DNA from: a virus
Virus record (IMG/VR): IMGVR_UViG_3300035152_000011
Strand: one strand, 5' to 3'
DNA length: 64,000 nt
Shown here: positions 3,640-50,778 of the stretch, one piece after another
Layout of the letters: the number at the start of each line of letters is the position of its first letter
Position numbering within the stretch: the stretch's first letter is position 1
The notes under the pieces: model-generated
Told to the model about the DNA's origin: nothing
The model's database searches: none
What the model saw: the letters and a program-made list of their open reading frames with translations, nothing else
Program-made: the position numbers and the translations under genes

Positions 3640-3652
3640 GCCCCTCGGGGCC
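3640..3652 (-). promoter_or_regulatory. GC hairpin GGCCCCGAGGGGC immediately 5' of the RBS.
   Basis: Sense strand reads GGCCCCGAGGGGC-GAAGGAG-ACGAAG-ATG (helicase). Confidence 0.55.
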
Positions 3653-3707
3653 GTCTCGCGGTTCTGTCCGCTTCCAAGAGTCAGACGTATGGGCGCACCG
3701 GATATTC

Positions 3708-3725
3708 TGATCGCAGCTGCGATCA
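3708..3725. promoter_or_regulatory. Palindromic operator TGATCGCAGCTGCGATCA.
   Basis: Perfect 18-bp palindrome about 55 bp upstream (sense orientation) of the helicase hairpin. Confidence 0.55.
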
Positions 3726-3763
3726 AATTCAGAATGGTGGCATTTCAGTGGGTTACGGGTCGA

Positions 3764-4210
3764 TTATTTAGCAATGCGCTCGATTCGGCAAGCCTTTGGC
3801 GCCAAGGCAACGATCTCGCGGGTGTCGGTGGGCTTCCCGTTCCATACGGTCACCGTCACGATCCCGTCATAGCCGGCTCGTCGGAGCTTCGCGGACAGCG
3901 CCTTCCCCTTCGCCCGGTACTCGCGGCGCAGATTCGCTTTCCAGCTCGTCTCGTCGTAGTTCATGTAGTTCGAGCTGGTGTTGATCGGAATTACCAGTGG
4001 GTGCTCGAAGCAGCACTCACCGACGGCCCAGCGAGGCGCGAGCTGGCCGGGCGTCGGGTTGTGAATCAGGTAGAGCCCGGCCGGCTCGATATCCTGCTGG
4101 TACGTCGAGCCGAAGTACGGCGCCCTCTCTGTATTGCGCAGCAGTCGGAAACAGACCGGCCGGCCCGTCTCGAACCGCTTGCCATACTCGGTGACGCTTG
4201 TGAGCTTCAC
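3764..4210 (-). CDS. Hypothetical protein.
   Basis: ORF of 148 aa. Confidence 0.45.
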   Translation of the reverse strand: MKLTSVTEYGKRFETGRPVCFRLLRNTERAPYFGSTYQQDIEPAGLYLIHNPTPGQLAPRWAVGECCFEHPLVIPINTSSNYMNYDETSWKANLRREYRAKGKALSAKLRRAGYDGIVTVTVWNGKPTDTREIVALAPKACRIERIAK

Positions 4211-4222
4211 CCTACGACTGTA

Positions 4223-4867
4223 TCACAGCAGGTCTCGTGCGACTTGCTCAGCTGCTTCACGATGCTGCTCGAAGACCGCGGGACACGCCTCGACCAGGTA
4301 CTCCCACATCCAGTAGGCGATCACACGCATCTCCGGGTGGGCAGCCGGTGCGAGTCGAAGGTGGAAGATCGACTCACTGAAGTGCCGGAAGTTGGTCGTG
4401 ATGCAGATTTCGGTCTTGAGGCAGATCGGCAGTACGCTGCGTGCGATCTGCGGCTTGGCACCGGTGTCGAGCATCAGGAAGTAGGCGCGCTCAGCAGCCT
4501 CGCACGATGCACTCCAGTGTCCCTCACCTGTCGGGCCGAGACCCGGTGGCTTGACGACGGTGATCTCGCGACCGAACTTCGCCTTGCCGTAGTTGCAGTA
4601 GCGTGTGCTCTCCTGTGCGTAGCTAGCCAGCCGATGACGGACCAGTTCGTGACTCACGCCGCGGTTGCAGACGATGCGGAAACTCGCGTGCGCATGCTCG
4701 ATCATCGCGTAGTGCCCGCGCTCGGCGAGCATCCCAACGAACCTGTCAGCGGAGTCTTCGGTGATGTGGTCTTCGGACTTGTAGCAGGTGCGCCCGATCT
4801 CCTCGATCAGCTTGGCGCTGTCGGAGTCCACACGAATGAGTTTCACGGACGGCTCGACGATCTTCAT
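4223..4867 (-). CDS. thyX: FAD-dependent thymidylate synthase ThyX.
   Basis: ThyX signature RHRLASYAQES (RHRX7S); 214 aa is the typical length. Confidence 0.85.
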   Translation of the reverse strand: MKIVEPSVKLIRVDSDSAKLIEEIGRTCYKSEDHITEDSADRFVGMLAERGHYAMIEHAHASFRIVCNRGVSHELVRHRLASYAQESTRYCNYGKAKFGREITVVKPPGLGPTGEGHWSASCEAAERAYFLMLDTGAKPQIARSVLPICLKTEICITTNFRHFSESIFHLRLAPAAHPEMRVIAYWMWEYLVEACPAVFEQHREAAEQVARDLL

Positions 4868-4877
4868 GCCGCGTGTG

Positions 4878-4900
4878 TAGCATGCGGGTGTGACATGCTA
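4878..4900. promoter_or_regulatory. Inverted repeat TAGCATG-N9-CATGCTA in a divergent promoter region.
   Basis: Lies in the 42 bp between the thyX start (4867, minus) and the plus gene start (4910). Confidence 0.35.
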
Positions 4901-5970: not shown

Positions 5971-6300
5971 TCAGGCTACACGAAAACCGGCCTGTCGTGC
6001 CCGTTCCTGGACTTCAGCCCGCGTAGACCAGCTTAACAGCACGATCTCACCGTCACCGCGGACGATATACCGGCTGTATCCTGCGTTGCCGTAGATGGCG
6101 CAGTCACCACCATCGGGGCAGAGATTGTCCTCCCAGACTTCGCCGGGTTCCAGCTCGTCTTGAATCTCCTGCCACTCCTTCAGGAAGGCGTAGAAGCCGT
6201 GTGGATTGTGCACCCGATCAGTTTGGGTGCGCGCCCATTCAGTACCTTCAACCGAAGTGAGTCGTGCGAGCGCGTGCTCTTCGTAGATGTAGACCGCCAC
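5971..6300 (-). CDS. Hypothetical protein.
   Basis: 109 aa. Confidence 0.45.
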   Translation of the reverse strand: MAVYIYEEHALARLTSVEGTEWARTQTDRVHNPHGFYAFLKEWQEIQDELEPGEVWEDNLCPDGGDCAIYGNAGYSRYIVRGDGEIVLLSWSTRAEVQERARQAGFRVA

Positions 6301-7214
6301 TACCAGAGCATCTCCCCGATGGCGTCAGCCGCTGACGTCCCCGCCATCGTGTGGTCTGTATAGGTCTTGTTGATCGTCTGTGACCGACCATCCTCGACGA
6401 CGTGGCCTGTGATGGCTGCGATCTCGTGGTCGGCAGCACCACGCTGTTTCGCCCAGGTCACGAACGTGTGACGGAAGATGTGCGGTGAGAAGTCCTCGAT
6501 CTGGGCCTTCCGAGCGCGCGCTTTGACGACGTGGTAAATGCCATCGACCGTAATCTGCTCACCTACCGCGACCTTGCCGTCAAGGCGTTCACGCGAGACA
6601 GAGCGGAACAGCGCGCCGTCCTTGATGCCGCCGGTGCTGAGCCACCGCTTCCAGGGTGTCATCGCCTCGACCGCGGCGCGGGTCAACGGAACCTTATGGC
6701 GGCTGCCTCCTTTGAGTGTAATCTCGACGAATGGGTATCCGCGGGTCCGGTCGCGGCCGAAGTCGGCCAACGTGATTCCAGCCATCGAGAAGCGGCGCAT
6801 CCCGGTCGTGAATCCAAGCACTGTCATGCCGAAGTCCCGTAGGTCGATAGGCCGCGGGCCACGACACGCGTCGATCAGTCGCGTGCCTTCCTCGGGGGTC
6901 AGCGCACGACGGTCCACGTCCAGTTTCGGCGCCTTCGCTGTTTCGACGACGCTCGCGAAGTCGAGCATCGGATTCTGTTCGAGCTGGGCCCGGCGCTTGG
7001 AGACGTAGCGCAAACCGGAGAATTTCACGTTCGCGCTTTGCGGTGGCATGCGTGTGAGCAGTCCGTTGTAGAAGCTCTGCGCTGCGTGTCCCGTCCAGGC
7101 CGCAGGATGATGCCCAACCTCTTGTAGGAAGTCCCGTACGGTCGCCGAGTATGCACGCTTCGTGTGGCGGCTGAGCTTCGGGCTCTGTTCGATGATCATT
7201 TCCAGTTCAGTCAT
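6300..7214 (-). CDS. int: Tyrosine recombinase / phage integrase.
   Basis: C-terminal catalytic region HIFRHTFVTWAKQRG...EIAAITGH...INKTYTDHT (H-x-x-R, second His, Tyr). Start set at MTELEM so as not to overlap the upstream gene in another frame. Confidence 0.8.
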   Translation of the reverse strand: MTELEMIIEQSPKLSRHTKRAYSATVRDFLQEVGHHPAAWTGHAAQSFYNGLLTRMPPQSANVKFSGLRYVSKRRAQLEQNPMLDFASVVETAKAPKLDVDRRALTPEEGTRLIDACRGPRPIDLRDFGMTVLGFTTGMRRFSMAGITLADFGRDRTRGYPFVEITLKGGSRHKVPLTRAAVEAMTPWKRWLSTGGIKDGALFRSVSRERLDGKVAVGEQITVDGIYHVVKARARKAQIEDFSPHIFRHTFVTWAKQRGAADHEIAAITGHVVEDGRSQTINKTYTDHTMAGTSAADAIGEMLW

Positions 7215-7557
7215 CCCACGGCTCCACTGGGATCTCTTTGAAGACCCACTTACGGTAATCGTACTCTTCGTTCCAAAGCCGTTGAGCAGCTTCCACTTGG
7301 CGGCGGCGGAACTGTTTGGTGTGGTCAATCCCGATGGAATAGCCAAGCACCCATTCACCATCCCAGTTGACCGTCGCCCAAGCTGCACTACGGCCGTTCT
7401 TCGGCCACCAGCGCGGTCGCCGAGCCGGCTTGACGAGCAGGATGACGTCCCAGTTGGGATTCGGCGCGCCGCATCGAGCGCAGGTCTCACGCTTACAGCC
7501 TGGAAGGCCGTACTCGGTGAACCAGTGCCGTTTGTGGCCGAGGATGCAACGACTCAT
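7207..7557 (-). CDS. Cys-rich hypothetical protein.
   Basis: C4-type spacing CILGHKRH...CKRETCARCG; internal Met start gives an ATGA overlap with the next gene. Confidence 0.45.
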   Translation of the reverse strand: MSRCILGHKRHWFTEYGLPGCKRETCARCGAPNPNWDVILLVKPARRPRWWPKNGRSAAWATVNWDGEWVLGYSIGIDHTKQFRRRQVEAAQRLWNEEYDYRKWVFKEIPVEPWDD

Positions 7558-7934
7558 TGCACATCCCTGGTGAATATACCTCGCGCGTACATGCGGGGAG
7601 CACACTTTGCACAGAATGCCGAGCCCGCTTCGTGATTCTTGGGGACGGGCTCGCCGCAACTCGCGCAGACGTGCCTGTGGCAGAACCCTGTCTCGTTGTC
7701 TTTTGCGATTCGGCTACCGCATTGAATACAGACGTGCATCCCGTGACGCCGCATGATGTCACGGGCGATCTTGAAGTGGCCGACCTTGATCGCGGACTCG
7801 ACTGCATCCTGGATGTCCTCTATCGTGAGGCCGCCCTCATAGACCGGTCGGCCAAGCGAGTCCACAATGCCTGACCGCCCGGTGGGCTCGATGATCGGCC
7901 GAAGGATCGACCTGTAGACGTCGCGGTAGCTCAT
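7554..7934 (-). CDS. Cys-rich hypothetical protein.
   Basis: 126 aa with CIQCG...CHRHVCASCG. Confidence 0.45.
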   Translation of the reverse strand: MSYRDVYRSILRPIIEPTGRSGIVDSLGRPVYEGGLTIEDIQDAVESAIKVGHFKIARDIMRRHGMHVCIQCGSRIAKDNETGFCHRHVCASCGEPVPKNHEAGSAFCAKCAPRMYARGIFTRDVQ

Positions 7935-8221
7935 CCGCGAAACTCGCTGGCGCAGCTCTCACAGACCTGAAGGAGGGCCTGTTGGCCTTCGACGGGCGGG
8001 TCATAGAGCACCGTCTCGGTCGCTATCGCGTTCGCGCACTTGACGCAGACGTCCGCTTTGGCTTCCTCGACGATCTGCTGGGCGATGTCGTACCGGCCGA
8101 CTGCCACCGTCGCCATGAGGGCTTGCTGCACCGTGTCCAGGTCGTACTCAGGCTCCTGTGGTTGATGGATCGGAGTGGACCGCTTCATCCGTACCCAGCG
8201 CTGTGGATTGACTATGGGCAT
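7931..8221 (-). CDS. Hypothetical protein (Cys-containing).
   Basis: 96 aa with CVKCANAIA...CESCAS. Confidence 0.45.
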   Translation of the reverse strand: MPIVNPQRWVRMKRSTPIHQPQEPEYDLDTVQQALMATVAVGRYDIAQQIVEEAKADVCVKCANAIATETVLYDPPVEGQQALLQVCESCASEFRG

Positions 8222-8817
8222 CCTTCCTCCACTGCTCTCTGTGCGATTTCTCGTGCGACCTCGTAGTTGTCAATATCGCACGCAGCCGCACAGGCCATCC
8301 ATACATCCGGGTCGTCGATGCGTTTCTCCTGCCCCTTGGTGAAGTCGCGGAGCCGTACGCGCATCTCGATGCGGTCGAGGGTTACTTTGTCCAACTGCAC
8401 CTGCGAGTACGCAGCGTCCAGCCGTTCCCATGGATCGAGGCCCGGTGGCGTGCGGTGTACCCGCCGCACGGCGTAGACGAGATCGCCGACCGCGCCAACG
8501 AACTGGCGCCGCTTTGTTGCTACGGGGATCATGCCCCACCATTTGAGAGCGGTCTCGATATGTTTGTCGCGTCCGGTGGCCAGGAAGCGCTCCGTCTCGT
8601 TCAATACGCGGCGAACCTTGCGACGGGGGATGTGTTTGCGCGGGGTCCAGTTTGTGCGCTTCGAGGTTGCATCGAGAGCGCGGGCAACGAAGAGTGCCGC
8701 GTTGCGCGGATCGAACCAGTTGCGGAGCCGCCGTGGGAGCAGCTCTTCGTCCTCGGGTCGTTGCCATGATGTAGGTCCGGGGCAGTAGCGCCAAGAGCTG
8801 GACGTTACAGGGTGCAC
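8212..8817 (-). CDS. Hypothetical protein; member of a local paralog family.
   Basis: C-terminus DDPDVWMACAAACDIDNYEVAREIAQRAVEEG resembles the C-terminus of the next gene. Confidence 0.45.
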   Translation of the reverse strand: MHPVTSSSWRYCPGPTSWQRPEDEELLPRRLRNWFDPRNAALFVARALDATSKRTNWTPRKHIPRRKVRRVLNETERFLATGRDKHIETALKWWGMIPVATKRRQFVGAVGDLVYAVRRVHRTPPGLDPWERLDAAYSQVQLDKVTLDRIEMRVRLRDFTKGQEKRIDDPDVWMACAAACDIDNYEVAREIAQRAVEEGCP

Positions 8818-9626
8818 GACTTCGCCTCCCCGAGGGCGCGGAGCACGATCTCATGCGCGATCTGGTGCTTGCCGACCTCGCAGGCTGCCAAGCACGCGAG
8901 CCCAACGTCCTCATCCTCGATCCTGTGACCCTGACCGTTCGTGAAGTCATCGAGCCGATAGCAAATCATAATCGCCTCGACCTGCGCCTTCGAGAGACTT
9001 AGACAGTTGGTCAGGTCTCTGAAATGGCCCGCCGGGCTAGACTCACCGTTGACGATCACACCGAACCCGTCCATCAGGTGATCTACGGCGTCCAGCTGGT
9101 CGTGGTACGGCTTGGGAAACCTGTGGCTACGGCGCCAGGCGTCACAGGCACTACGGTAGGGGATCGCCTGTCGGTGCTTCAAACATGCTTTGAGCTTCGG
9201 CATGACGCGACGGACGGCTTTGGTGAGGAACGGCCGTGGGGCGCGCCAGCGCTTGTTACGGCTCGGCCGGCGCTCGAACCGGTCGAGCTTGGCCAGCTCA
9301 CAATCGACCAGCTCGTAGGCACACGCGGCCATACGCCACGGATCGCGCCAGCCGAGCCACTGCGGGTCGGGGACGTAGACGAATCGGTTGTACATCATGT
9401 CGATCCCGTGGTGGGACGGCCGGCTGGACGGCTGAACGGTTTGGCTGATTGCGTTTATGGCCCACGTCCAGGTCTGGACGTCGGCTGTGAAACCTACGCT
9501 GCTCGGGCTTCGCGATCCTTCTTCTGCCAGGCCTGCCACTTCTTCTTCGGAGCCTTTAGGTGATCCTCGCACAAGTGATGATGCCTGGGACCCTTGCTCT
9601 TCTTCTTGCAGCCTGGCTTGATGCAC
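8805..9626 (-). CDS. Hypothetical protein; paralog of 8212..8817 (start uncertain).
   Basis: C-terminus EDEDVGLACLAACEVGKHQIAHEIVLRALGEA. Confidence 0.4.
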   Translation of the reverse strand: MHQARLQEEEQGSQASSLVRGSPKGSEEEVAGLAEEGSRSPSSVGFTADVQTWTWAINAISQTVQPSSRPSHHGIDMMYNRFVYVPDPQWLGWRDPWRMAACAYELVDCELAKLDRFERRPSRNKRWRAPRPFLTKAVRRVMPKLKACLKHRQAIPYRSACDAWRRSHRFPKPYHDQLDAVDHLMDGFGVIVNGESSPAGHFRDLTNCLSLSKAQVEAIMICYRLDDFTNGQGHRIEDEDVGLACLAACEVGKHQIAHEIVLRALGEAKSCTL

Positions 9627-10123
9627 GTCCGCGCCTTCGCTTTCCCCTTCCTGTTTACCATACTCTTCTGACGCTTGGTGGCCGCTTCCGCGGGCTGCGC
9701 AGTCCCGTTGAGCACTGCGGCGCGCTTATCGCACGACCGAGCGTGGATCGACGCGGCCCGTTGGGTGTTGAACTGCATCTCGCAGAAGATGCACATCCAG
9801 CCGTGCTTGGCCCGTGTGATGCCGCGCGCCAGTGTAATGGGATCGAGCGTGGCGAGCATCTTCTGGACAGCCTGGGGCGTGAGCGGGCCCGGAGCGACCT
9901 CGACCGTGTTCTTCGGGATCACCTTCTTTCCCAGGAGCTTTTCCGCCAGCTCGGCCCGAACGGCAGCTTCGGTTTCAGGTCGCAGGTCGTCGAGGCGGGC
10001 CTGGACGACAGCTGCGATATTACCAGCGATCTCGGCCTCGACCTCGGCCCTCCGTATTTCCAGCTTCGCATCGGTGAGCTTCTTGACCTCATCCTCGAAG
10101 AGCTTCTCGATTTTGCTCGACAT
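9494..10123 (-). CDS. Zinc-finger / coiled-coil protein.
   Basis: CIFCEMQF...HARSC and CIKPGCKKKSKGPRHHHLCEDH. Confidence 0.45.
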   Translation of the reverse strand: MSSKIEKLFEDEVKKLTDAKLEIRRAEVEAEIAGNIAAVVQARLDDLRPETEAAVRAELAEKLLGKKVIPKNTVEVAPGPLTPQAVQKMLATLDPITLARGITRAKHGWMCIFCEMQFNTQRAASIHARSCDKRAAVLNGTAQPAEAATKRQKSMVNRKGKAKARTCIKPGCKKKSKGPRHHHLCEDHLKAPKKKWQAWQKKDREARAA

Positions 10124-10131
10124 GGGTACTC

Positions 10132-10728
10132 CTAGGCGGCCTTCAGGCGCCGTTTCTTGGTTGAGCACTGACGTAGCTCACGCTTCAACGCCGCGTTCTC
10201 GTCCTTGAGAGCTTTGATCTGCTTCCGCAGTTCGGCGGCCTTCTCTTTGAGCTTGCGGACCATCTCGATGGTGTTCGTTTGCCGCTTACGCGGCACGATC
10301 TTGTCGAGCGCCTTTGAGAGTGATGAGCCCGCCGGTGGCCGGTTGGTCTTCTTCATGACCTTGTCCAGCTCGCGTAGCGCGCGTGTCTGTCCTCGTTTGT
10401 CGGGGATTCGATTCAGAACGCGTAGGAGCGCGAGACGTCCGTAGCGCTTGAACGCCGCGTCACCGAACGTGTCGAGGACGCGCAGCGTGTTGCGGACCTC
10501 GGCAGAGCCCTCGTGGAGACAGTAGCGAAGCACGTCGTTGAACGTGTACTCGACCATCTCATCGTAGGTAGCCTGCGAAGCGTAGCGCTTGCGGTCAAGC
10601 CACGGTTCGGTGTCACGGAGATGACGAAGCAGAACGGCGCGCTCCAGCTCGTTGCTCTCGCGACGCGCACGCAACGAGTGCCAGGTCGTCTCAATCTTCG
10701 CCCAGGACAGTCCCCTGAAGTTGATCAT
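10132..10728 (-). CDS. Hypothetical protein with a basic coiled-coil C-terminus.
   Basis: 198 aa. Confidence 0.45.
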   Translation of the reverse strand: MINFRGLSWAKIETTWHSLRARRESNELERAVLLRHLRDTEPWLDRKRYASQATYDEMVEYTFNDVLRYCLHEGSAEVRNTLRVLDTFGDAAFKRYGRLALLRVLNRIPDKRGQTRALRELDKVMKKTNRPPAGSSLSKALDKIVPRKRQTNTIEMVRKLKEKAAELRKQIKALKDENAALKRELRQCSTKKRRLKAA

Positions 10729-11135
10729 TGACTGTTCCCTTCGTAGAGGACGTTGCGAAGCAGACTGAGCGCCTCGGCATCAGATGTGATTGCACCCATC
10801 GTGATGCCGTCGAAGACCCAGCGCGCCTTCTGCACCGCGGTCTGCGCCTGCTTGGGCGTCATGCGTGCGGCTCCGACGGGTGTGCCGTTCTTCTCGCCGT
10901 TCTTCACACCGTTCGGTGGCGCTTTTGGCTTTGCTTTTGCTCGCCGTGGGCGATTTGCGGCTAGCTTCGTCACGTCGGCCTTCGAGTACAAGTTGCGATT
11001 GTTCGCAGCCTTCTTGACACGGATCTTCTTTTCGCGGCCGAGCTTCGAGACGTAGTTGGGGTTGGTGCCGAGCAGCTCTGCCGCATCATTCGGCGAGAGC
11101 CACTGAGCAGTGGACTTCGTTGGCGGCATTCCCAT
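10725..11135 (-). CDS. HTH DNA-binding protein (excisionase- or terminase-small-like).
   Basis: N-terminal HTH WLSPNDAAELLGTNPNYVSKLGREKKIRV and a basic middle region. Confidence 0.45.
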   Translation of the reverse strand: MGMPPTKSTAQWLSPNDAAELLGTNPNYVSKLGREKKIRVKKAANNRNLYSKADVTKLAANRPRRAKAKPKAPPNGVKNGEKNGTPVGAARMTPKQAQTAVQKARWVFDGITMGAITSDAEALSLLRNVLYEGNSQ

Positions 11136-11247
11136 CAGGAATCTCCCATCTCACTCTCCAACGCGCTGGAGTGTGACGTGTGAGTACGGGGCGCGTCCCT
11201 TCTACTTCTATACCACGAGTTGACTTTACATGGAAGACGCCTGATTT

Positions 11248-11265
11248 TGATCGCAGCTGCGATCC
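11248..11265. promoter_or_regulatory. Operator palindrome TGATCGCAGCTGCGATCC (17 of 18 positions).
   Basis: Intergenic, upstream of the 11135 gene start. Confidence 0.5.
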
Positions 11266-11267
11266 GG

Positions 11268-11462
11268 TTAGCGACGGCGTTTGGCGATGGCCATGTCCAC
11301 TTCGGTCGTGTCTACGAAGTGTTGAGTCGTGTCGATTTTCATCGTCAGGCCGCGCTCCAGGCGTTCCAGGGCGCGTTGACTGAGTGGCTCGGTGTAGGTG
11401 ATCGACCGGACGATCTCGCGGTCCTTGAGGCTTCTGACGTAGACGTTGGGCTGCTCTTTCAT
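11268..11462 (-). CDS. Small hypothetical protein.
   Basis: 64 aa from the internal Met MKEQPNVYVRSL. Confidence 0.35.
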   Translation of the reverse strand: MKEQPNVYVRSLKDREIVRSITYTEPLSQRALERLERGLTMKIDTTQHFVDTTEVDMAIAKRRR

Positions 11463-11472
11463 GCTCCGATCC

Positions 11473-15412: not shown

Positions 15413-15436
15413 CGTTCGCTCCTCGGAGCCGTTCTC

Positions 15437-15694
15437 CTACTCAGACGGCTCGGCGTTGTCGGAATTCAAACAGTGCTCGTAGTACTTGGCAGCCGTCTCG
15501 ATAGCGTCGCCGAGCGTACGGGCAAAGAGTCGGTGAGTTGGCGGTGGGCCGATAGGTGAAACCCGCCAACACCGGCCGTACTTGCGGCCAGCTCGCCGGC
15601 AGGTGCCGACGATCCAACCGTCGTGGAGATGGAGCACCCAGGTCTGAGATGCTTCGCGCTTCACCGCGTAGCCTTGTTTGTAGTCTCGTCTCAT
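15437..15694 (-). CDS. Small hypothetical protein next to the CRISPR trailer.
   Basis: 85 aa; not Cas2-like. Confidence 0.4.
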   Translation of the reverse strand: MRRDYKQGYAVKREASQTWVLHLHDGWIVGTCRRAGRKYGRCWRVSPIGPPPTHRLFARTLGDAIETAAKYYEHCLNSDNAEPSE

Positions 15695-24991: not shown

Positions 24992-25034
24992 CGTCCAGAA
25001 GTGAGACGACTGGTGATGGGGAAAGATTCAGAAT

Positions 25035-25052
25035 TGATCGCCGCTGCGATCA
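25035..25052. promoter_or_regulatory. Operator palindrome TGATCGCCGCTGCGATCA (one mismatch).
   Basis: About 45 bp upstream (sense) of the 24985 hairpin, followed by TTTTTT on the plus strand. Confidence 0.5.
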
Positions 25053-27370: not shown

Positions 27371-27383
27371 GCCCCTCGGGGCC
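27371..27383 (-). promoter_or_regulatory. GC hairpin GGCCCCGAGGGGC.
   Basis: Sense strand reads GGCCCCGAGGGGC-GAACGGAGAATCAA-ATG. Confidence 0.5.
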
Positions 27384-29554: not shown

Positions 29555-29568
29555 GTCCCCTCGGGGAC
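29555..29568 (-). promoter_or_regulatory. GC hairpin variant GGTCCCCGAGGGGACC (compensatory change keeps the palindrome).
   Basis: Sense strand reads GGTCCCCGAGGGGAC-AAGGAG-ACGCGAGTCG-ATG. Confidence 0.55.
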
Positions 29569-29613
29569 CAATCGCCTTCAGAAACTAAGACGTCGGGCGC
29601 ACCCCGGAAATTC

Positions 29614-29629
29614 GATCACAGGTGCGATC
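29614..29629. promoter_or_regulatory. Operator-family site GATCACAGGTGCGATC.
   Basis: Preceded by GGAAATTC and followed by TTTTT on the plus strand; same module layout as the other promoters. Confidence 0.45.
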
Positions 29630-31767: not shown

Positions 31768-31778
31768 CTGCTCTCCTC

Positions 31779-31792
31779 GTCCCCTCGGGGAC
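31779..31792 (-). promoter_or_regulatory. GC hairpin variant GGTCCCCGAGGGGAC.
   Basis: Sense strand reads GGGTCCCCGAGGGGAC-GAGGAG-AGCAG-ATG. Confidence 0.55.
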
Positions 31793-31848
31793 CCAGGTGC
31801 GCTATTTGCGCGTTCAGAAGGTCAGACGAATCCGGGCCGCAGAAATTC

Positions 31849-31864
31849 GATCACAGGAGCGATC
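31849..31864. promoter_or_regulatory. Operator-family site GATCACAGGAGCGATC.
   Basis: Flanked by GAAATTC and TTTTTT exactly as at 29614. Confidence 0.45.
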
Positions 31865-32459: not shown

Positions 32460-32462
32460 AGC

Positions 32463-37904: not shown

Positions 37905-37907
37905 TCG

Positions 37908-37920
37908 CCCCTCGGGGCCC
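37908..37920 (-). promoter_or_regulatory. GC hairpin GGCCCCGAGGGGC.
   Basis: Directly abuts the ATG at 37904 with no RBS spacing, so the true start may be the downstream ATG (MCSRCG). Confidence 0.45.
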
Positions 37921-41488: not shown

Positions 41489-41567
41489 GTCTCGCTCCTA
41501 TCAGTCAGGTTGGCTCCTCGGAGCCCACTTCGAGTGGTACAAGGGTTCGACGAGCCCCGGCTTGACT

Positions 41568-41807
41568 TTATTCAGTCTCGTCCCAGCCCCTTTTCTTGAG
41601 CCATCTCTGGTAGATGCTGGGGTTGCCGTAGAGGCTTGTTCCCAGCCTCTTCCGCGCCTGCCGCTGCACAAATTGCAGCAGGGAGACGCGACGGTGGCTC
41701 GGGTGCTCGTCACGGAACCGCGCGTAGAACCAGCGCACTTTCTCATCGCCCGTCACGGGGCCTCCGCTTGCGGCAGTCGGGACAGAGGTCCAGCCCGTCG
41801 CGGACAA
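41568..41807 (-). CDS. Small hypothetical protein.
   Basis: 79-aa ORF; weak. Confidence 0.3.
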   Translation of the reverse strand: MSATGWTSVPTAASGGPVTGDEKVRWFYARFRDEHPSHRRVSLLQFVQRQARKRLGTSLYGNPSIYQRWLKKRGWDETE

Positions 41808-44610: not shown

Positions 44611-44624
44611 TGTGCCCTCCTTCG

Positions 44625-44637
44625 GCCCCTCGGGGCC
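44625..44637 (-). promoter_or_regulatory. GC hairpin GGCCCCGAGGGGCC.
   Basis: Sense strand reads GGGCCCCGAGGGGCC-GAAGGAGG-GCACA-ATG. Confidence 0.55.
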
Positions 44638-44674
44638 CGGTTCACTTGTTTGACGCTCGGGGCCTTCGATCCAT

Positions 44675-44839
44675 TCAGAGCAGCTGGGACCGCAGATACT
44701 CGACCAGGTACTCCGCATAGCGCTTGACGAACGTGTGGCCCTCGAACACCAGGGTATCGCCCTTGGTGGCCTCCACGAGCTTGGCGAAGCGCTCCAGCTT
44801 CGCGCGGGTCCAGTCGATGGTCGGGATCTCTTGTCTCAT
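44675..44839 (-). CDS. Small hypothetical protein.
   Basis: Start at MRQEIPTIDW with RBS AGGAGCCACGA. Confidence 0.4.
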   Translation of the reverse strand: MRQEIPTIDWTRAKLERFAKLVEATKGDTLVFEGHTFVKRYAEYLVEYLRSQLL

Positions 44840-45673: not shown

Positions 45674-45993
45674 CACTGTGGCTCCTCGTCCCCTCGGGGA
45701 CCGTCGGGCGGCACTTCGCCGCTTGCACTACTGGAACGTTCGGACGGCGCTGAACATTCACAGTTGATCCTGTCCGCGATCACCATTCCAAGCCCAGTGG
45801 CCCACCAGAGCCCGTCGCCCGCGGAGTCCACGAGCGCACGCATCTGGAGATGCACAGCCGCAGCAGCGAAGCTGCGGTCAAGCGCCACACCCCGCTTGCG
45901 GTTCTCGATGCCGAGGTAAAGCAGGCAGCGAGTCATGGTCGGCGTGAGTCGGCGACTCTTGGCGGTGGGTGTGAGGTGCGGTTTCATGGTCAT
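45673..45993 (-). CDS. Hypothetical protein (3' end runs into the regulatory module).
   Basis: High GC3 over the first ~75 codons; the C-terminal tail is encoded by operator/hairpin sequence. Confidence 0.35.
   Translation of the reverse strand: MTMKPHLTPTAKSRRLTPTMTRCLLYLGIENRKRGVALDRSFAAAAVHLQMRALVDSAGDGLWWATGLGMVIADRINCECSAPSERSSSASGEVPPDGPRGDEEPQ
45688..45701 (-). promoter_or_regulatory. GC hairpin variant GGTCCCCGAGGGGAC.
   Basis: Sense strand reads GGTCCCCGAGGGGAC-GAGGAG-CCACAGTG-ATG. Confidence 0.55.
45755..45772. promoter_or_regulatory. Degenerate operator-family site TGATCCTGTCCGCGATCA.
   Basis: Outer arms TGATC/GATCA are conserved; followed in sense by the GAATGTTCAG...CGTCCGAACG promoter-like boxes. 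Confidence 0.35.
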
Positions 45994-48175: not shown

Positions 48176-48244
48176 TCGCTGACTCCTCGGAGTCCAGTGG
48201 GCGCTCCGTGCGCCTCCACTGCTAAGACGTATGTCGGGGTCGGA

Positions 48245-48937
48245 TTATTCACTGAGTCGGGCCGCGAATTCCCGCAGCTCCTCTTCGTGTGCGTGCAGCA
48301 ACTCGGCGTTCTGCGCTTCTCGCTCACGCCACCGGCACCGGGCCTCGTAGTCCTCGCGGTCGTACCGGCGACGCAGCGCGCAGTGGTTCGCCTCGAAGTG
48401 AGTGCTAGCACGGTCAACTTGGCCGTTCGAGAGCACGACCTCCCACTCATTCGCGCCCCAGAAGCCGTAGACGGGCCGAGGTCGGATTCCGACGACGCTG
48501 GGCACTACTTCCTTCTCGGGCTCGCGGAACGCGTCGTGAGCGCGCCTGAGCGCCTCTGAGGAGCGCTCCAGGTACCACTCGGCCAGGTCCGACAGACACC
48601 AGACGGTGACACCGTCGTGCCGACGGGTCTTCTCGATCCAGTCGCGGCCGGCCTTTTCCAGCCAGCGTGTGTGGGTCGCGGTCACGTCGCGCGCCTCGAT
48701 CACGCCACCCCGGTCAGCGATCTCACAGAACAGCCGGAACTGGTCGGAGCCGAGCGGCTTCGTCTGCGTGGCACCCTCGGCGTACATGACATCGAGCGCG
48801 TACTGCTCACGGTCCAGGCCGTCGAGCGTATTGAGGTAACGCTTCATGAGCTTCAGCTCGCGCAGGATCAGCGCGCGTCTGCTCTTGCCGGCCAGTTCGT
48901 GTTGCGTTCGATGCTTCATCTTCGTTGCTCCTACCAT
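48245..48937 (-). CDS. Hypothetical protein.
   Basis: 230 aa. Confidence 0.45.
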   Translation of the reverse strand: MVGATKMKHRTQHELAGKSRRALILRELKLMKRYLNTLDGLDREQYALDVMYAEGATQTKPLGSDQFRLFCEIADRGGVIEARDVTATHTRWLEKAGRDWIEKTRRHDGVTVWCLSDLAEWYLERSSEALRRAHDAFREPEKEVVPSVVGIRPRPVYGFWGANEWEVVLSNGQVDRASTHFEANHCALRRRYDREDYEARCRWREREAQNAELLHAHEEELREFAARLSE

Positions 48938-48966
48938 AGACGCGTGGAGGCGTGCAGCACTGACAG

Positions 48967-49230
48967 CTACCAGACCTCCCAGTAGTCGTGGGGGACACCC
49001 CCGCTGACGCCGCCGCGCTTGACGCCCTGGTCTTCGGTCGGCATCTGGTGCAGCGGCGTGTCGCTGTCCTTCGTACGCTCGGCGACGCGTTGCAACGCAG
49101 CGTGGGCTTGCTTGACCGTGACACCGTAACGCACAGCGATGTCGCGGGTGAAGCCGTCCTCGAACGTGCCGTCGAGGACAGCCTTCTCGATGCGCTCGGC
49201 GATACGAACAGCAGGTGTGCGGGCCACCAT
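48967..49230 (-). CDS. Small HTH-like protein.
   Basis: RDIAVRYGVTVKQAHAALQRV. Confidence 0.4.
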   Translation of the reverse strand: MVARTPAVRIAERIEKAVLDGTFEDGFTRDIAVRYGVTVKQAHAALQRVAERTKDSDTPLHQMPTEDQGVKRGGVSGGVPHDYWEVW

Positions 49231-49412
49231 TAGTGGTTCTCCGTCGTGGCTACGGGGATGCCCGCGATCTCTTCGGTCGTGCAGGGCTTGCTCGCACGCA
49301 GGTGAACGATGGGATAGCCCAGCTCTTGAGCGAGCTTGAGCAGGGCGGCCGACTTGTGAGCTACGCGCTCCTCGTCACCGGGGGCCAGGTACAGATCGTT
49401 GCGCTTGGTCAT
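49230..49412 (-). CDS. Small hypothetical protein.
   Basis: 60 aa. Confidence 0.35.
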   Translation of the reverse strand: MTKRNDLYLAPGDEERVAHKSAALLKLAQELGYPIVHLRASKPCTTEEIAGIPVATTENH

Positions 49413-50752
49413 GCTGCTTTCCTCTCTGCCGCCTTGGCGGCCTCGTCAGCGGCCTTGCAGGTCGCGTAGAGCTTGTCGAACGCCTTGGTGTGCTTCGCGC
49501 CCTTCTCGCGGTAGACGCGCGGAGCGACGACGATGGCGGCTTCTCGGGTCGGGTACAGGTCGCGGAACGCGACGAGCTGCGCGCTGCAACCACGCTCGAC
49601 GGTCACGCCGTGCTTCCGAGCGAGCTTGCGCAGTTCAGCTTCGCACGCGAAGCGCGAGCCGGCGAAGACCTCGCGGATGTCCCGCTTCTGGTTCGCGCCG
49701 AGTCCCTTCACGGTCTCGTGCGTCGGGCAGTCGCACTTGACCTTCTTGGTGCGCGGCTTGCGGTTCGCCTTGTGGTTCGGGCAGTCGTCGGTGTGAAGCT
49801 GGCCAGCACCGTTCGCGCGCCGCATCAAGTACACAGCCCACTCGTGCGAGCTGAGCCGTGCGTCCAGCGCGTCGAGCGCAGCCTGGTTGCCAGCCTCGGT
49901 GGCTGCCGCGAGTGCGGTGCCTTCCTTGTTGAACATCGGCAGCCGCGGGTTGAAGCGGAGGGCGATGTCTTCGATCTCCAGCGCCTCGCCAGCGGCCTCG
50001 GGCTCGTCGTCCCAGCGCTCGATGGCGTCGTGGCGGTGCTGGAAGGGACAGTACACGCAGCAACTCTTCTCCCATGCGGCGACGCCAGTCACGCTCGCGA
50101 TGTGCTCGATGCAGGCTTCGCGGTCGAGGCCCCAGTCGAACAGCGGATACTCGGCGTGGCGCTGGCCGATGCCGCCGAAGTTTTGATCCTTCACGAGGCG
50201 GCCCTCTTCGCCTACTGCGAAACCGATGCAGTGACGGTAGGGCTCGTTGCCGACTTCGGACTCGATCCAGCGGTCCAGGACCCAGCCCTTCCACTTCAAC
50301 GTGCAGGTGCGGTTGCAGGTCGGCTGCATCGTCACAGCGCTGCGCAGCTCGTCAGCGTAGCTCACCGGGCCGCGCTCGAACAGCTCAGCCGGCGAGGTCG
50401 AGTCATCGAGGACAACGATGCCGTCGCGCTCGCTGTGGCCGCCGCGGGCGATCTGGACGAAGCGGACGCCGTGCTCACGCAGCAGCGGCAGGACGTGCTC
50501 GCGCACGAGTTTGTAGGTGGAGGGGTACTCGTTGCCGACCATGCAGGTGACAACGGTGAGCTGAGAGAGGTCGAAGTCGCGGCTCGACGGGTCGGTCAGC
50601 CAGCGCAGCAGGATCTCGGTGCTGTCCACGCCCATCCCGTAGCTCAGGATGACGCGGGCGCCGCGGAGCTGCTCAGCTCGTGCGCTTCGGTCCGCGTGGT
50701 AGGCCTTGACCGCTGCTTCGATTTCCCGGCGCCGCTTCTCTGCCTTCGTCAT
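49409..50752 (-). CDS. PAPS reductase-like / PP-loop family protein (second copy).
   Basis: VILSYGMGVDSTEILL (SxGxDS) and C-terminal EKSCCVYCP. Start at MTKAEKRRRE after the hairpin+RBS (GGAGGAAACGCG). Confidence 0.55.
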   Translation of the reverse strand: MTKAEKRRREIEAAVKAYHADRSARAEQLRGARVILSYGMGVDSTEILLRWLTDPSSRDFDLSQLTVVTCMVGNEYPSTYKLVREHVLPLLREHGVRFVQIARGGHSERDGIVVLDDSTSPAELFERGPVSYADELRSAVTMQPTCNRTCTLKWKGWVLDRWIESEVGNEPYRHCIGFAVGEEGRLVKDQNFGGIGQRHAEYPLFDWGLDREACIEHIASVTGVAAWEKSCCVYCPFQHRHDAIERWDDEPEAAGEALEIEDIALRFNPRLPMFNKEGTALAAATEAGNQAALDALDARLSSHEWAVYLMRRANGAGQLHTDDCPNHKANRKPRTKKVKCDCPTHETVKGLGANQKRDIREVFAGSRFACEAELRKLARKHGVTVERGCSAQLVAFRDLYPTREAAIVVAPRVYREKGAKHTKAFDKLYATCKAADEAAKAAERKAA

Positions 50753-50764
50753 CGCGTTTCCTCC

Positions 50765-50778
50765 GACCCCTCGGGGTC
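50765..50778 (-). promoter_or_regulatory. GC hairpin variant GGACCCCGAGGGGTC.
   Basis: Sense strand reads ACGGACCCCGAGGGGTC-GGAGGAA-ACGCG-ATG. Confidence 0.55.

What the first reader, a model, noticed from the sequence alone, without database searches (positions are those of the whole stretch)
3640..50778. Conserved GC hairpin GGCCCCGAGGGGC fixed immediately 5' of the Shine-Dalgarno of at least 11 genes, with compensatory variants
Seen in sequence: the motif occurs at 3640, 22525, 24001, 24979, 27371, 37908 and 44625 as GGCCCCGAGGGGC. At 29555, 31779 and 45688 it is GGTCCCCGAGGGGAC(C), and at 50765 GGACCCCGAGGGGTC; the outer bases change in pairs, keeping the dyad. A degenerate copy sits at 56485. 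In ten cases the sense-strand order is hairpin, then 0-3 nt, then a GA-rich RBS (GAAGGAG, AAGGAGG, GAGGAG, GGAGGAA), then 5-8 nt, then ATG/GTG. Because the motif encodes PRGE/PRGD in one frame, several ORF-caller N-termini or C-termini run through it (APRGE..., GPRGDEEPQ), which helped fix true starts. Established knowledge: conserved start-associated sequences are known in cluster K mycobacteriophages, and 5'-UTR hairpins can stabilise transcripts, mark processing sites or bind translational regulators. Inference: a phage-specific post-transcriptional or promoter-proximal element that marks a co-regulated gene set.
Basis: seen in the sequence. Interest (0 to 1): 0.7.

Follow-up and report, generated by a model that had tools for sequence, protein, structure and literature searches.

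The report
Repeated leader hairpin before phage genes
A short GC-rich RNA hairpin occurs 14 times in this phage fragment, always just ahead of a gene's ribosome-binding site and usually just after the same alternative-sigma-type promoter, so it marks a co-regulated set of DNA-metabolism genes; what it does (protect the mRNA, tune translation, or bind a regulator) is not yet proven.

Summary
The core CCCCGAGGGG occurs 11 times and a compensatory variant CTCCGAGGAG 3 times. All 14 copies lie on the coding (minus) strand and none is expected by chance. A covariance-model census gives exactly these 14. Two stem pairs covary (GC/UA/AU/GU and CG/UA) and are never unpaired. The CGAG loop and the two other core C-G pairs are invariant across 29 copies from this phage and a related IMG/VR phage.

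Twelve of 14 hairpins sit 8-35 nt downstream of a bipartite motif, TGAATnT-N14/15-CGTCTnAC, which resembles ECF-sigma (AlgU/RpoE-type) promoters. Six of these promoters abut a 16-bp palindrome, GATCGCAGCTGCGATC, that looks like an operator. Five or six carry an extra, sequence-variable hairpin at the predicted 5' end.

Distance to the promoter varies. Distance to the start codon is tight (11-16 nt in 10 of 14). In three window copies the hairpin's 3' arm is the only Shine-Dalgarno-like sequence.

Best reading: an RNA stem-loop next to the ribosome-binding site, inside a modular promoter-leader-RBS cassette, acting on mRNA stability or translation. The invariant core may be recognised by a shared factor. 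There is no Rfam match and it is not a terminator. The closest analogue is the cluster K SAS/ESAS repeats, whose function is also unknown. The transcription start, the sigma factor and the host are all undetermined.

The parts
3640..3651 (-). Conserved hairpin GCCCCGAGGGGC, 13 nt before ATG 3626 (UvrD-type helicase)
   Evidence: identical in the relative's orthologous leader
3680..3707 (-). ECF-like promoter GAATAT-N14-CGTCTGAC
   Evidence: -35 and -10 conserved in the ortholog
3709..3724 (.). Palindrome GATCGCAGCTGCGATC abutting the -35 (operator-like)
3658..3671 (-). Variable 5' hairpin GCGGacagaaCCGC, within a 19-nt indel relative to the ortholog
15418..15429 (-). Variant hairpin GCTCCGAGGAGC; its 3' arm GAGGAG is the only SD, and ATG 15412 follows 5 nt later
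15440..15467 (-). ECF-like promoter GAATTC-N14-CGTCTGAG
22525..22536 (-). Hairpin GCCCCGAGGGGC, 12 nt before GTG 22512 (PolX-like nucleotidyltransferase)
22545..22573 (-). ECF-like promoter GAATTC-N15-CGTCATAC, 8 nt upstream of the hairpin
24001..24012 (-). Hairpin, 15 nt before ATG 23985; it overlaps the 3' end of ORF 23995-24600
24048..24076 (-). Weak promoter-like GAATAG-N15-CGTCAAAG inside coding sequence, 35 nt upstream of the hairpin (doubtful)
24978..24991 (-). Hairpin GGCCCCGAGGGGCC, 15 nt before ATG 24962 (38-aa ORF)
25001..25029 (-). ECF-like promoter GAATCT-N15-CGTCTCAC
25036..25051 (.). Palindrome GATCGCAGCGGCGATC upstream of the -35
27371..27382 (-). Hairpin, 14 nt before ATG 27356 (phrog_6077 protein); no promoter motif here, though the relative's ortholog has one
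29555..29568 (-). Hairpin GTCCCCGAGGGGAC, 16 nt before ATG 29538 (PAPS-reductase-like)
29585..29613 (-). ECF-like promoter GAATTT-N15-CGTCTTAG
29614..29629 (.). Palindrome GATCGCACCTGTGATC directly abutting the -35
31779..31792 (-). Hairpin GTCCCCGAGGGGAC, 11 nt before ATG 31767 (400-aa protein, function unknown)
31799..31811 (-). Variable 5' hairpin GCGCaaataGCGC
31821..31848 (-). ECF-like promoter GAATTT-N14-CGTCTGAC
31849..31864 (.). Palindrome GATCGCTCCTGTGATC abutting the -35
37907..37918 (-). Hairpin GCCCCGAGGGGC after the stop of gene 37943-38410; ATG 37904 follows 2 nt later, so the SD would be the hairpin arm. No promoter motif. The relative has two hairpins flanking a promoter at this position
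41512..41525 (-). Variant hairpin GGCTCCGAGGAGCC, 23 nt before ATG 41488 (Ku)
41545..41573 (-). ECF-like promoter GAATAA-N15-CGTCGAAC; a possible extra hairpin CCACTcgaAGTG lies at 41526-41537 and was not seen in the fold
44624..44637 (-). Hairpin GGCCCCGAGGGGCC, 13 nt before ATG 44610
44648..44676 (-). ECF-like promoter GAATGG-N15-CGTCAAAC
45688..45701 (-). Hairpin GTCCCCGAGGGGAC, 11 nt before GTG 45676
45708..45722 (-). Variable 5' hairpin GCGGCgaagtGCCGC
45731..45759 (-). Degenerate promoter GAATGT-N15-CGTTCCAG
45766..45781 (.). Degenerate palindrome GATCGCGGACAGGATC
48181..48194 (-). Variant hairpin GACTCCGAGGAGTC; its 3' arm is the only SD, and ATG 48175 (AAA_33 kinase-like) follows 5 nt later
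48200..48214 (-). Variable 5' hairpin GGCGCacggaGCGCC
48222..48250 (-). ECF-like promoter GAATAA-N15-CGTCTTAG
50765..50778 (-). Hairpin GACCCCGAGGGGTC, 12 nt before ATG 50752 (PAPS-reductase-like, 447 aa)
50786..50798 (-). Variable 5' hairpin GCGCgaaaaGCGC
50807..50834 (-). ECF-like promoter GAATTT-N14-CGTCTGAC
50842..50857 (.). Palindrome GATCGCAGCTGCGATC upstream of the -35

Best explanation
The motif is an RNA stem-loop (a 4-5 bp G+C stem closing a CGAG loop) in the 5' leader of phage mRNAs. It is the RBS-adjacent part of a modular cassette. The cassette order is: optional operator-like palindrome GATCGCAGCTGCGATC; a bipartite ECF-sigma-type promoter TGAATnT-N14/15-CGTCTnAC; an optional, sequence-variable hairpin at the predicted 5' end; the invariant hairpin; the SD; and the start codon. 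Transcription is inferred to start about 5-7 nt after the -10 box. On that inference every transcript of this promoter class begins with a stem-loop within about 0-5 nt of its 5' end, and the invariant hairpin always abuts the SD. I propose it acts in cis on the mRNA. It would shield the 5' end from 5'-end-dependent decay and lock the sequence upstream of the SD into a fixed fold, so that the first cistron of each unit is translated reproducibly. In the copies where the SD-like 3' arm (GAGGRG) is the only SD, it would throttle translation by masking that SD. Shown: the repeat family, its strand and position, base-pair covariation, linkage to the promoter-like motif, and conservation in relatives. 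Inferred: the promoter's activity and start site, that the RNA rather than the DNA is the functional form, and the stabilising/translational role.
For: Enrichment and strandedness: 11 exact cores plus 3 variants, all in sense orientation, 0 expected. Pairing: pair 6-17 is GC19/UA5/AU4/GU1 and pair 8-15 is CG24/UA5, never unpaired in 29 copies; 0 of 500 shuffles reach the covariation score, and slid registers collapse. The hairpin forms in the MFE fold of 12 of 14 leaders, at -6 to -11.4 kcal/mol alone. Promoter linkage: GAAT-N16/17-CGTC gives 15 hits against 4.8 expected, 14 of them on the coding strand. Followed within 10-40 nt by the hairpin it gives 10 hits against 0.02 expected. Positions that the search pattern left free are also conserved: A at -10 box position 7 in 15/17 modules and T at position 5 in 10/17. 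The motif matches the AlgU consensus GAACTT-N16-17-TCtgA in spacing and in the -10 (PMC3819740). Geometry: the gap from -10 box to hairpin varies (8-35 nt), while the gap from hairpin to start is 11-16 nt in 10 of 14. Where the promoter gap is 27-29 nt, a different-sequence hairpin fills the position 8-9 nt after the -10 box. In the helicase leader this extra hairpin lies within a 19-nt indel between orthologs. Footprint: in orthologous leaders of the relative, hairpin plus SD are 100% identical while flanks diverge. No sigma-70-like promoters or sense-strand terminators lie in these intergenic regions. The downstream genes form a coherent set: UvrD, PolX-like, Ku, two PAPS-reductase-like proteins, a kinase-like protein.
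Against: No transcription start, sigma factor or host is known. No sigma gene was found in the window or in about 62 kb of the relative. The only hint is a 61-aa ORF with a weak Sigma70_r4 hit just outside the window. The -35 reads GAAT, not the GAAC typical of AlgU/RpoE. A purely structural role does not explain why the loop and the three innermost stem pairs (two invariant C-G, one only C-G or U-A) are so constrained in 29 copies while neighbouring 5' hairpins vary freely. Two window copies (27371, 37907) lack the promoter motif and a third promoter (24048-24076) is doubtful, so a 5'-cap role cannot hold for all copies. Predicted SD accessibility is only moderate (0.28-0.84). Covariation counts are over paralogous copies in effectively two genomes, not independent lineages.
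Confidence: 0.5

Rival explanations
1. The hairpin is an RNA operator, a sequence-specific binding site for a shared trans-acting factor. The factor could be a phage translational repressor or activator (in the manner of T4 RegA, MS2 coat protein or Mu Com), or a nut/boxB-like loading site for an antiterminator on nascent RNA. It would switch the whole gene set on or off together.
For: The CGAG loop and two C-G pairs are invariant, and a third pair is restricted to C-G or U-A, in 29 copies from two phages whose shared proteins are only 35-96% identical. The adjacent 5' hairpins keep structure but not sequence. Exact hairpin sequences also occur in a 53% G+C contig with the same promoter type. 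The hairpin abuts the SD, where a bound protein would occlude the 30S subunit. In 3 window and 3 relative copies the SD lies inside the stem. Many small Zn-ribbon-like ORFs are present as possible binders.
Against: No candidate RNA-binding protein, N-like protein or Com-like protein was identified. The 4-nt CGAG loop is not a GNRA-like pentaloop of boxB type. Fourteen or more sites per 64 kb is unlike nut or put usage. The sequence constraint could instead reflect the SD-like nature of the 3' arm (GAGGRG) and its complement.
Confidence: 0.28
2. It is a double-stranded DNA site, such as a repressor roadblock comparable to the cluster A mycobacteriophage 'stoperators', or another DNA-binding-protein site placed at the start of transcription units.
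For: It is repeated, intergenic, in a single orientation relative to transcription, in a phage that carries an integrase. It has dyad symmetry.
Against: Compensatory replacement of base pairs with three different Watson-Crick types plus a G-U is the signature of nucleic-acid pairing, not of protein-DNA contacts. The centre CGAG is asymmetric and always in the same orientation. Spacing is fixed to the start codon, not to the promoter. A separate, better operator candidate (the 16-bp palindrome) already sits at the -35.
Confidence: 0.07
3. It is a 3'-end element of the upstream gene: a terminator, or a REP-like barrier to 3'-5' exonucleases. It would lie before the next SD only because intergenic spacers are short.
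For: Several copies follow a stop codon closely (27371, 37907, 22525). In the relative, one copy lies between a stop codon and a promoter (B 97737). Single GGCCCCGAGGGGCC hairpins followed by an SD occur sporadically in unrelated viral contigs.
Against: No U-tract follows any copy, and the terminator scan finds none on the sense strand. Most copies lie downstream of a promoter-like motif rather than directly after a gene. The distance to the start codon is constrained. One copy lies inside the upstream ORF.
Confidence: 0.1
4. It is a generic host repeat (REP/BIME-like) or a small mobile element that the phage picked up, with no role tied to phage genes.
For: The host is unknown, so its chromosome could not be counted. 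Cassette positions differ between the two related phages, so gains and losses occur.
Against: Strict sense orientation, linkage to the promoter motif and SD, and identity at orthologous sites argue against it. The 120 metagenome loci returned for the 17-mer CGGCCCCGAGGGGCGAA showed no nucleotide similarity to the window, were largely single occurrences, many within apparently coding GC-rich sequence, and showed no consistent SD-start arrangement downstream. There is no Rfam family.
Confidence: 0.03

Closest known systems
[quoted passage not shown] 2011, PMC3203893)
   Same: A short conserved repeat present in 11-19 copies per genome, in one orientation, placed just upstream of the start codons of a subset of non-structural genes. 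About half the copies have an additional inverted-repeat feature upstream. It is conserved across related phages in front of different gene families. Its function is still unknown.
   Different: SAS is the asymmetric 13-mer GGGATAGGAGCCC, which contains the SD itself. Here the repeat is a self-complementary hairpin 5' of the SD (or containing it, in 3 of the 14 window copies) with an unrelated sequence. It is coupled to an ECF-like promoter, which was not reported for SAS. This phage has no detectable relation to cluster K.
ECF-sigma (AlgU/RpoE-type) promoters, GAACTT-N16-17-TCtgA (PMC3819740)
   Same: It is bipartite with a variable-sequence spacer. The spacing from GAAT to TCTGA is 16-17 nt. 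The -10 reads CGTCTGA in the best copies.
   Different: The -35 reads GAAT(A/T)T rather than GAACTT. No cognate sigma was identified. This concerns the element next to the hairpin, not the hairpin itself.
5'-terminal stabilising stem-loops (E. coli ompA leader; the stem-loop at the 5' end of T7 late transcripts). Established knowledge; see review PMC3997798, listed but not read here
   Same: A G+C stem-loop predicted within a few nucleotides of the transcript 5' end for every promoter of the class. It is repeated on many phage transcription units, as in T7.
   Different: The start sites are only predicted. In five or six cassettes the invariant hairpin is the second, not the terminal, stem-loop. 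Its sequence, not just its structure, is conserved.
RNA operators and nut sites: lambda boxA/boxB, Mu Com-mom, T4 RegA targets (established knowledge)
   Same: A small promoter-proximal or RBS-adjacent hairpin with an invariant loop, shared by several transcripts, suitable for recognition by one protein.
   Different: The loop is CGAG (4 nt), not a GNRA-like pentaloop. There are 14 or more sites rather than 1-2. No binding protein was found.
Stoperators of cluster A mycobacteriophages (mentioned in PMC3203893)
   Same: About 13-bp sites scattered in intergenic regions, in one orientation relative to transcription.
   Different: Stoperators are asymmetric DNA sites for the repressor. This motif shows compensatory base-pair changes and start-codon spacing.

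Membership tests
Cluster K SAS/ESAS | 13-bp consensus GGGATAGGAGCCC (no more than 2 mismatches) containing the SD | tested here: not met
   The family consensus is GGCCCCGAGGGGC, with no resemblance to the SAS consensus quoted.
Cluster K SAS/ESAS | Multi-copy, single orientation, a few bp upstream of the start codons of a subset of non-structural genes | tested here: met
   14 copies, all in sense orientation; 10 of 14 end 11-16 nt before the start.
Cluster K SAS/ESAS | Occurs in cluster K mycobacteriophage genomes | tested here: not met
   No nucleotide match in 50,697 phage records, and the best protein hits are below 37% identity to non-actinophages.
ECF-sigma-dependent promoter (AlgU/RpoE type), for the adjacent element | -35 GAAC(TT), 16-17 nt, -10 TCTGA | tested here: inconclusive
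   Spacing and the -10 fit. The -35 is GAAT in 16/17 modules (GGAT in one), not GAAC.
ECF-sigma-dependent promoter (AlgU/RpoE type), for the adjacent element | A cognate ECF sigma factor available (phage or host) | tested here: inconclusive
   None found in the window or in the fetched parts of the relative. There is only a 61-aa ORF with a weak Sigma70_r4 hit outside the window. The host is unknown.
5'-terminal stabiliser stem-loop | Stem-loop beginning within a few unpaired nt of the transcript 5' end | not testable with these tools
   The first hairpin lies 6-10 nt after the -10 box in most short and long cassettes (16 nt at 29555). This fits if the start site is 5-7 nt after the box, but no start-site data exist.
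Intrinsic terminator | G+C hairpin followed by a U-tract | tested here: not met
   The 3' flanks are purine-rich SD sequences. No sense-strand terminator-like site was found in 21000-33000.
Lambda-type nut site | boxB: 5-bp stem with a GNRA-like pentaloop, with boxA upstream and an N-type protein | tested here: not met
   The loop is an invariant 4-nt CGAG. The CGTCTnAC box is better explained as a -10 by its fixed spacing to GAAT. An N-like protein was not searched for specifically.
REP/BIME-like host repeat | Abundant in the host chromosome, extragenic, in both orientations, not tied to gene starts | not testable with these tools
   The host is unknown. Within the phage the orientation and start linkage contradict it. 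The 120 metagenome loci carrying the 17-mer are unrelated to the window and mostly single copies.
Any Rfam family | Score at or above the gathering threshold | tested here: not met
   0 hits at gathering. Only 17-19-bit chance-level hits at E above 0.5.

The most novel reading that the evidence does not exclude
The invariant CYCC-GA-GGRG hairpin is a dedicated RNA operator, in effect an intramolecular mimic of the SD:anti-SD duplex. It would be read by one phage (or ribosome-associated) factor. Together with an ECF-type promoter and a palindromic DNA operator, it would form a three-layer control cassette that the phage copies in front of whichever genes it wants in one temporal class. That would be a portable 'regulon tag' acting at transcription, mRNA stability and translation at once. 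It could also explain the still-unexplained start-associated repeats of other phages.
Probability: 0.25. Interest if true: 0.75.

Novelty: new variant of a known kind. Interest (0 to 1): 0.5.

Why it matters
Repeated start-associated sequences in phage genomes (cluster K SAS/ESAS) have been known since 2011 and still have no assigned function. This family gives a cleaner case. The repeat is demonstrably a base-paired element. It is separable from the SD in most copies and contains it in others. It is tied to a recognisable promoter class and to an operator-like palindrome. That makes specific experiments possible: compensatory stem mutants, loop mutants, and cassette transplantation. Practically, the cassette fixes true start codons and transcription-unit boundaries in an otherwise unannotated ~150-kb uncultivated phage lineage. 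It also offers a compact promoter-leader-RBS part for high-GC hosts.

Tried and rejected
- Known phage relatives: megablast of 10 kb against INPHARED found no match. tblastn of two proteins gave only hits below 37% identity.
- Host identification via genome contigs with the helicase was uninformative; the best hit was 42% identity in a MAG contig.
- The metagenome scan with the 17-mer returned 120 loci with no nucleotide similarity to the window and no consistent SD-start arrangement, many apparently coding. It serves only as a negative control.
- The literature search for the sequence string found nothing relevant.
- Rfam: no family. Two sub-threshold antisense PhotoRC-I hits over the hairpin plus SD were dismissed as chance.
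- Sigma-factor hunt: Pfam on most window ORFs, including concatenated polyproteins, which lowers sensitivity. Pfam on 10 ORFs of the relative. Nothing was found.
- A nut-site reading of CGTCTnAC as boxA, and of GCGCgaaaaGCGC as boxB, was considered and rejected. The box keeps a 16-17 nt spacing to GAAT, and the upstream hairpin loops differ in every copy.
- The terminator reading was rejected because there is no U-tract.
- Phages with 46-54% helicase identity were searched for the same or an analogous repeated hairpin. None was found; they carry other repeats.

Full report
**1. The observation**

- The 13-mer GGCCCCGAGGGGC occurs seven times, with 0.00 expected in dinucleotide shuffles.
- The 10-mer core CCCCGAGGGG occurs eleven times.
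- Every copy is on the minus strand, which carries almost all genes of the window. All copies are therefore in sense orientation.
- The outer-pair variants GGTCCCCGAGGGGAC (three copies) and GGACCCCGAGGGGTC (one copy) are as described.
- In ten of the eleven copies a purine-rich SD and an ATG/GTG follow, with the start 13-18 nt after the core. The 37907 copy has ATG 3 nt after the core and no separate SD.
- I found three further members in which an inner pair has changed on both sides (CTCCGAGGAG): 48181-48194, 41512-41525 and 15418-15429.
- A covariance model of the family scores exactly these 14 sites at 23-31 bits, all on the minus strand. The next hit scores 12.9 bits.
- The 'degenerate copy' near 56485 cannot form the stem and is not recovered.

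**2. It is a base-paired element**

I aligned the 14 window copies with 15 copies from a related phage (alignment A1).

- The CGAG loop and two C-G pairs are invariant.
- Pair 6-17 is GC 19, UA 5, AU 4, GU 1.
- Pair 8-15 is CG 24, UA 5.
- Neither pair is ever unpaired.
- None of 500 column shuffles reaches the observed covariation score, and sliding the 3' partner by one to three columns destroys the signal.
- Alone, the hairpin folds at -6 to -11.4 kcal/mol. It appears in the minimum-free-energy structure of 12 of 14 leaders.

Replacement of a pair by three different Watson-Crick types plus a sense-strand G-U points to nucleic-acid pairing, not a protein-contacted DNA palindrome. Caveat: the cells counted are paralogous copies in effectively two genomes, not independent lineages.

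**3.

Aligning 90 nt upstream of each copy shows that the hairpin is the last element of a longer cassette.

*Promoter-like motif.*
- GAAT-N16/17-CGTC occurs 15 times against 4.8 expected, 14 of them on the coding strand.
- The same motif followed within 10-40 nt by YCCGAGGR occurs 10 times against 0.02 expected.
- With slightly looser criteria, 12 of 14 hairpins have it.
- Over 17 modules from both phages the consensus is (T)GAAT(A/T)(T)-N14/15-CGTC(T)nA(C/G). Positions the search pattern left free are conserved, for example A in 15/17 modules at position 7 of the -10 box.
- This is the architecture of ECF-sigma promoters. The published AlgU consensus is GAACTT-N16-17-TCtgA (PMC3819740). The phage motif shares the spacing and the TCTGA but has GAAT in place of GAAC.
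- No sigma-70-like promoters and no sense-strand terminators lie in these intergenic regions.

*Palindrome.* Six of the promoters directly abut a 16-bp palindrome, GATCGCAGCTGCGATC. There are twelve copies with three or fewer mismatches in the window against about one expected. This is a good operator candidate.

*Second hairpin.* Five cassettes carry an additional hairpin 8-9 nt after the -10 box, and a possible sixth lies at 41526-41537. The sequence differs in every copy: GCGCgaaaaGCGC, GCGCaaataGCGC, GCGGacagaaCCGC, GCGGCgaagtGCCGC, GGCGCacggaGCGCC, CCACTcgaAGTG.

**4. Geometry**

- The gap from the -10 box to the invariant hairpin takes the values 8-10, 16-19, 27-29 and 35 nt.
- The gap from the hairpin's 3' end to the start codon is 11-16 nt in 10 of 14 copies.
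- The element is therefore positioned relative to the ribosome-binding site, not the promoter.
- If transcription starts the usual 5-7 nt after an ECF -10 element (established knowledge, not tested here), most transcripts of this promoter class begin with a stem-loop within about 0-5 nt of the 5' end. That stem-loop is the invariant hairpin in the short cassettes and the variable one in the long cassettes.
- In three window copies (48181, 15418, 37907) and three copies in the relative, the start codon lies only 2-9 nt after the stem. There the only SD-like sequence at proper spacing is the hairpin's own 3' arm, GAGGAG or GAGGGG.
- The allowed inner-pair change (C-G to U-A) keeps that arm SD-like (GGGG to GGAG) and keeps the 5' arm anti-SD-like (CCCC to CUCC).

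**5. Relatives**

- The window has no close relative among 50,697 deposited phages.
- The same helicase and another window protein are encoded on contigs of JGI metagenome 3300042731. The latter protein is also found in SRR11713591.
- IMG/VR holds two nearly identical ~150-kb contigs, IMGVR_UViG_3300034782_000041 and IMGVR_UViG_3300035152_000026. They share 35-96% protein identity with the window in a mosaic, rearranged pattern.
- About 62 kb of the 146,941-bp contig IMGVR_UViG_3300034782_000041 was fetched. In that sequence there are 16 sense-strand hairpin copies, several behind the same promoter motif.
- At orthologous leaders the hairpin plus SD are 100% identical while flanks diverge. In the helicase leader the -35 (AGAATATCCGGT), the -10 and the palindrome core are also conserved, and the extra 5' hairpin lies within a 19-nt indel.
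- Cassettes are gained and lost between the two phages. Examples are the copies in front of the TnpB-like gene and the ortholog of gene 39284-40069 in the relative only.
- A third contig, IMGVR_UViG_3300048609_000057 (53% G+C), shares only weak protein similarity. It carries two exact hairpins, one behind GAATAT-N16-CGTCT.
- Phages whose helicase is 46-54% identical lack the motif and use other repeats.
- The 120 metagenome loci carrying the 17-mer CGGCCCCGAGGGGCGAA have no nucleotide similarity to the window. They are largely single copies in GC-rich, often apparently coding sequence, with no consistent SD-start arrangement downstream.
- Sporadic single GGCCCCGAGGGGCC hairpins before an SD occur in other viral contigs. 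The sequence itself is therefore easy to evolve; the multi-copy cassette is what is lineage-specific.
- No Rfam family matches.

**6. The genes marked**

| Start | Downstream gene |
|---|---|
| 3626 | UvrD-type helicase |
| 15412 | 215-aa protein, function unknown |
| 22512 | PolX-like nucleotidyltransferase |
| 23985 | 165-aa protein, function unknown |
| 24962 | 38-aa ORF |
| 27356 | phrog_6077 protein |
| 29538 | PAPS-reductase-like protein |
| 31767 | 400-aa protein, function unknown |
| 37904 | 62-aa Cys-rich ORF |
| 41488 | Ku |
| 44610 | small protein |
| 45676 | small protein |
| 48175 | AAA_33 kinase-like protein |
| 50752 | PAPS-reductase-like protein |

Sources. The window is a non-structural DNA-metabolism and repair region. 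It also encodes ThyX, PARP, an ATP-dependent ligase, a LigD phosphoesterase, an integrase and a TnpB-like protein. No sigma factor was detected in the window or in the sampled parts of the relative. A 61-aa ORF with a weak Sigma70_r4 hit lies just beyond the window.

**7. Mechanism**

The best-supported reading is a cis-acting RNA stem-loop in the leader of transcripts from one promoter class.

*Shown:*
- the repeat family;
- its sense orientation;
- its pairing;
- its linkage to the promoter-like motif;
- its fixed position next to the SD;
- purifying selection at orthologous sites.

*Inferred:*
- that the bipartite motif is an active ECF-type promoter;
- where transcripts start;
- that the hairpin protects the 5' end and fixes the RBS context, or masks the SD in the six copies where the SD is inside the stem.

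*Main weakness.* A purely structural role does not explain the invariant loop and inner stem next to freely varying 5' hairpins. This favours the principal rival: a sequence-specific RNA operator for a common factor, either a translational regulator in the style of Mu Com, T4 RegA or MS2 coat, or an antiterminator loading site. I found no candidate protein. The constraint could also come from the SD/anti-SD character of the two arms.

*Less likely readings:*
- A DNA-level site is unlikely because of the compensatory changes and the spacing to the start codon.
- A terminator is excluded because there is no U-tract.
- A generic host repeat is contradicted by orientation and linkage, but it cannot be tested formally because the host is unknown.

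**8. Comparison with known systems and novelty**

The nearest described phenomenon is the SAS/ESAS repeats of cluster K mycobacteriophages. These are a 13-bp asymmetric, SD-containing repeat in 11-19 copies, about half with upstream inverted repeats, and their function is still unverified in 2025 (PMC3203893, PMC12699233).

- The present family behaves like SAS/ESAS in copy number, orientation, start association and conservation across different gene families.
- It fails membership on sequence, on anatomy (a hairpin 5' of the SD) and on phage lineage.
- It also resembles the 5' stabilising stem-loops of ompA and T7 late transcripts in predicted position.
- Its companion element resembles AlgU/RpoE promoters.

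I rate it a new variant of a known kind. It is a well-defined, experimentally tractable promoter-leader-RBS cassette in an uncultivated ~150-kb phage lineage, of moderate interest. Interest would be higher if the invariant core proves to be a dedicated RNA operator.

Noticed in passing
window 446-461, 1807-1822, 3709-3724, 11249-11264, 25036-25051, 29614-29629, 31849-31864, 45766-45781, 50842-50857, 62621-62636: A 16-bp palindrome GATCGCAGCTGCGATC occurs 4 times exactly. By search there are 12 sites with 3 or fewer mismatches, against about 1 expected; 45766-45781 is a more degenerate copy seen by eye. Six copies abut the -35 of hairpin cassettes and one lies in a divergent intergenic region. 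The relative's ortholog is AATCGCGTCCGCGATT: the symmetry is kept but the GATC sites are lost. Several copies have an upstream A-run, so the opposite strand looks terminator-like. This is probably a repressor or activator operator.
   Followed up: partly
window 19728-21293, 22033-23573, 33805-34182, 40556-41488: The phage encodes a DNA end-joining and ADP-ribosylation set: PARP with WGR and regulatory domains, a PolX-like nucleotidyltransferase, an ATP-dependent ligase, a LigD 3'-phosphoesterase and Ku. An ADP-ribosylglycohydrolase lies just outside the window.
   Followed up: partly
window 17025-18620: A 531-aa ORF gives a weak, sub-threshold hit (21.9 bits against a 26.3 cutoff) to the Cas12f1/TnpB-like TNB domain. 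It lies in a lower-GC stretch (12-18 kb) whose codon usage differs from the rest. Its 75%-identical ortholog in the relative has a hairpin copy (GGGCTCCGAGGAGCC) upstream; the window copy has none.
   Followed up: partly
window 57558-61685: Four tandem paralogous genes (29-36% identity) share a conserved W..LP.(I/M)(L/M)..H motif. Their function is unknown.
   Followed up: partly
window 24836-24850 and 24606-24620: An exact 15-mer, ACTAGGAGCAAGACC, is repeated at two successive gene junctions. It spans the stop codon, the SD and the spacer.
   Followed up: no
window 28471-29538 and 49409-50752: Two PAPS-reductase-like genes both carry the full cassette: palindrome, promoter, hairpin.
   Followed up: no
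window 6300-7490 and 10725-11135: A tyrosine integrase and an HTH_17 (excisionase/MerR-like) protein suggest a temperate lifestyle. The HTH protein's gene is preceded by the palindrome at 11249-11264 without the conserved hairpin.
   Followed up: no
L193 (IMGVR_UViG_3300048609_000057) 10682-10703, 12283-12338, 9878-9905: A 53% G+C viral contig, only weakly related at protein level, has two exact hairpin copies. It also has two GAATA-N16-CGTC promoter-like motifs, one only 7 nt before an ATG (a possibly leaderless start).
   Followed up: partly
window 29532-29568 and 31757-31792 (+ strand): Sub-threshold Rfam hits to PhotoRC-I (17-18 bits against a gathering score of 45) on the antisense strand, over the hairpin plus SD. 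Judged to be chance.
   Followed up: yes
window 25920-26021 (upstream of ATG 25918): CGTCTGCT is followed 7 nt later by a different strong hairpin, GCCTCCGGtcgggCCGGAGGC. It has no recognisable GAAT -35 and may be another leader type.
   Followed up: no
L056 (SCSV01000286.1, 'Salinibacterium' MAG contig) 6014-12142; L046 8023-8220: Distant relatives carry their own repeats. L056 has a palindrome, TTGACGTGTCAA, five times within 6 kb. L046 has a ~45-bp tandem repeat in five copies.
   Followed up: no
left of window (JGI 3300042731 contig): Downstream of the helicase, this phage encodes a 1170-aa ribonucleotide reductase with a faint intein_splicing hit, and an acetyltransferase.
   Followed up: no
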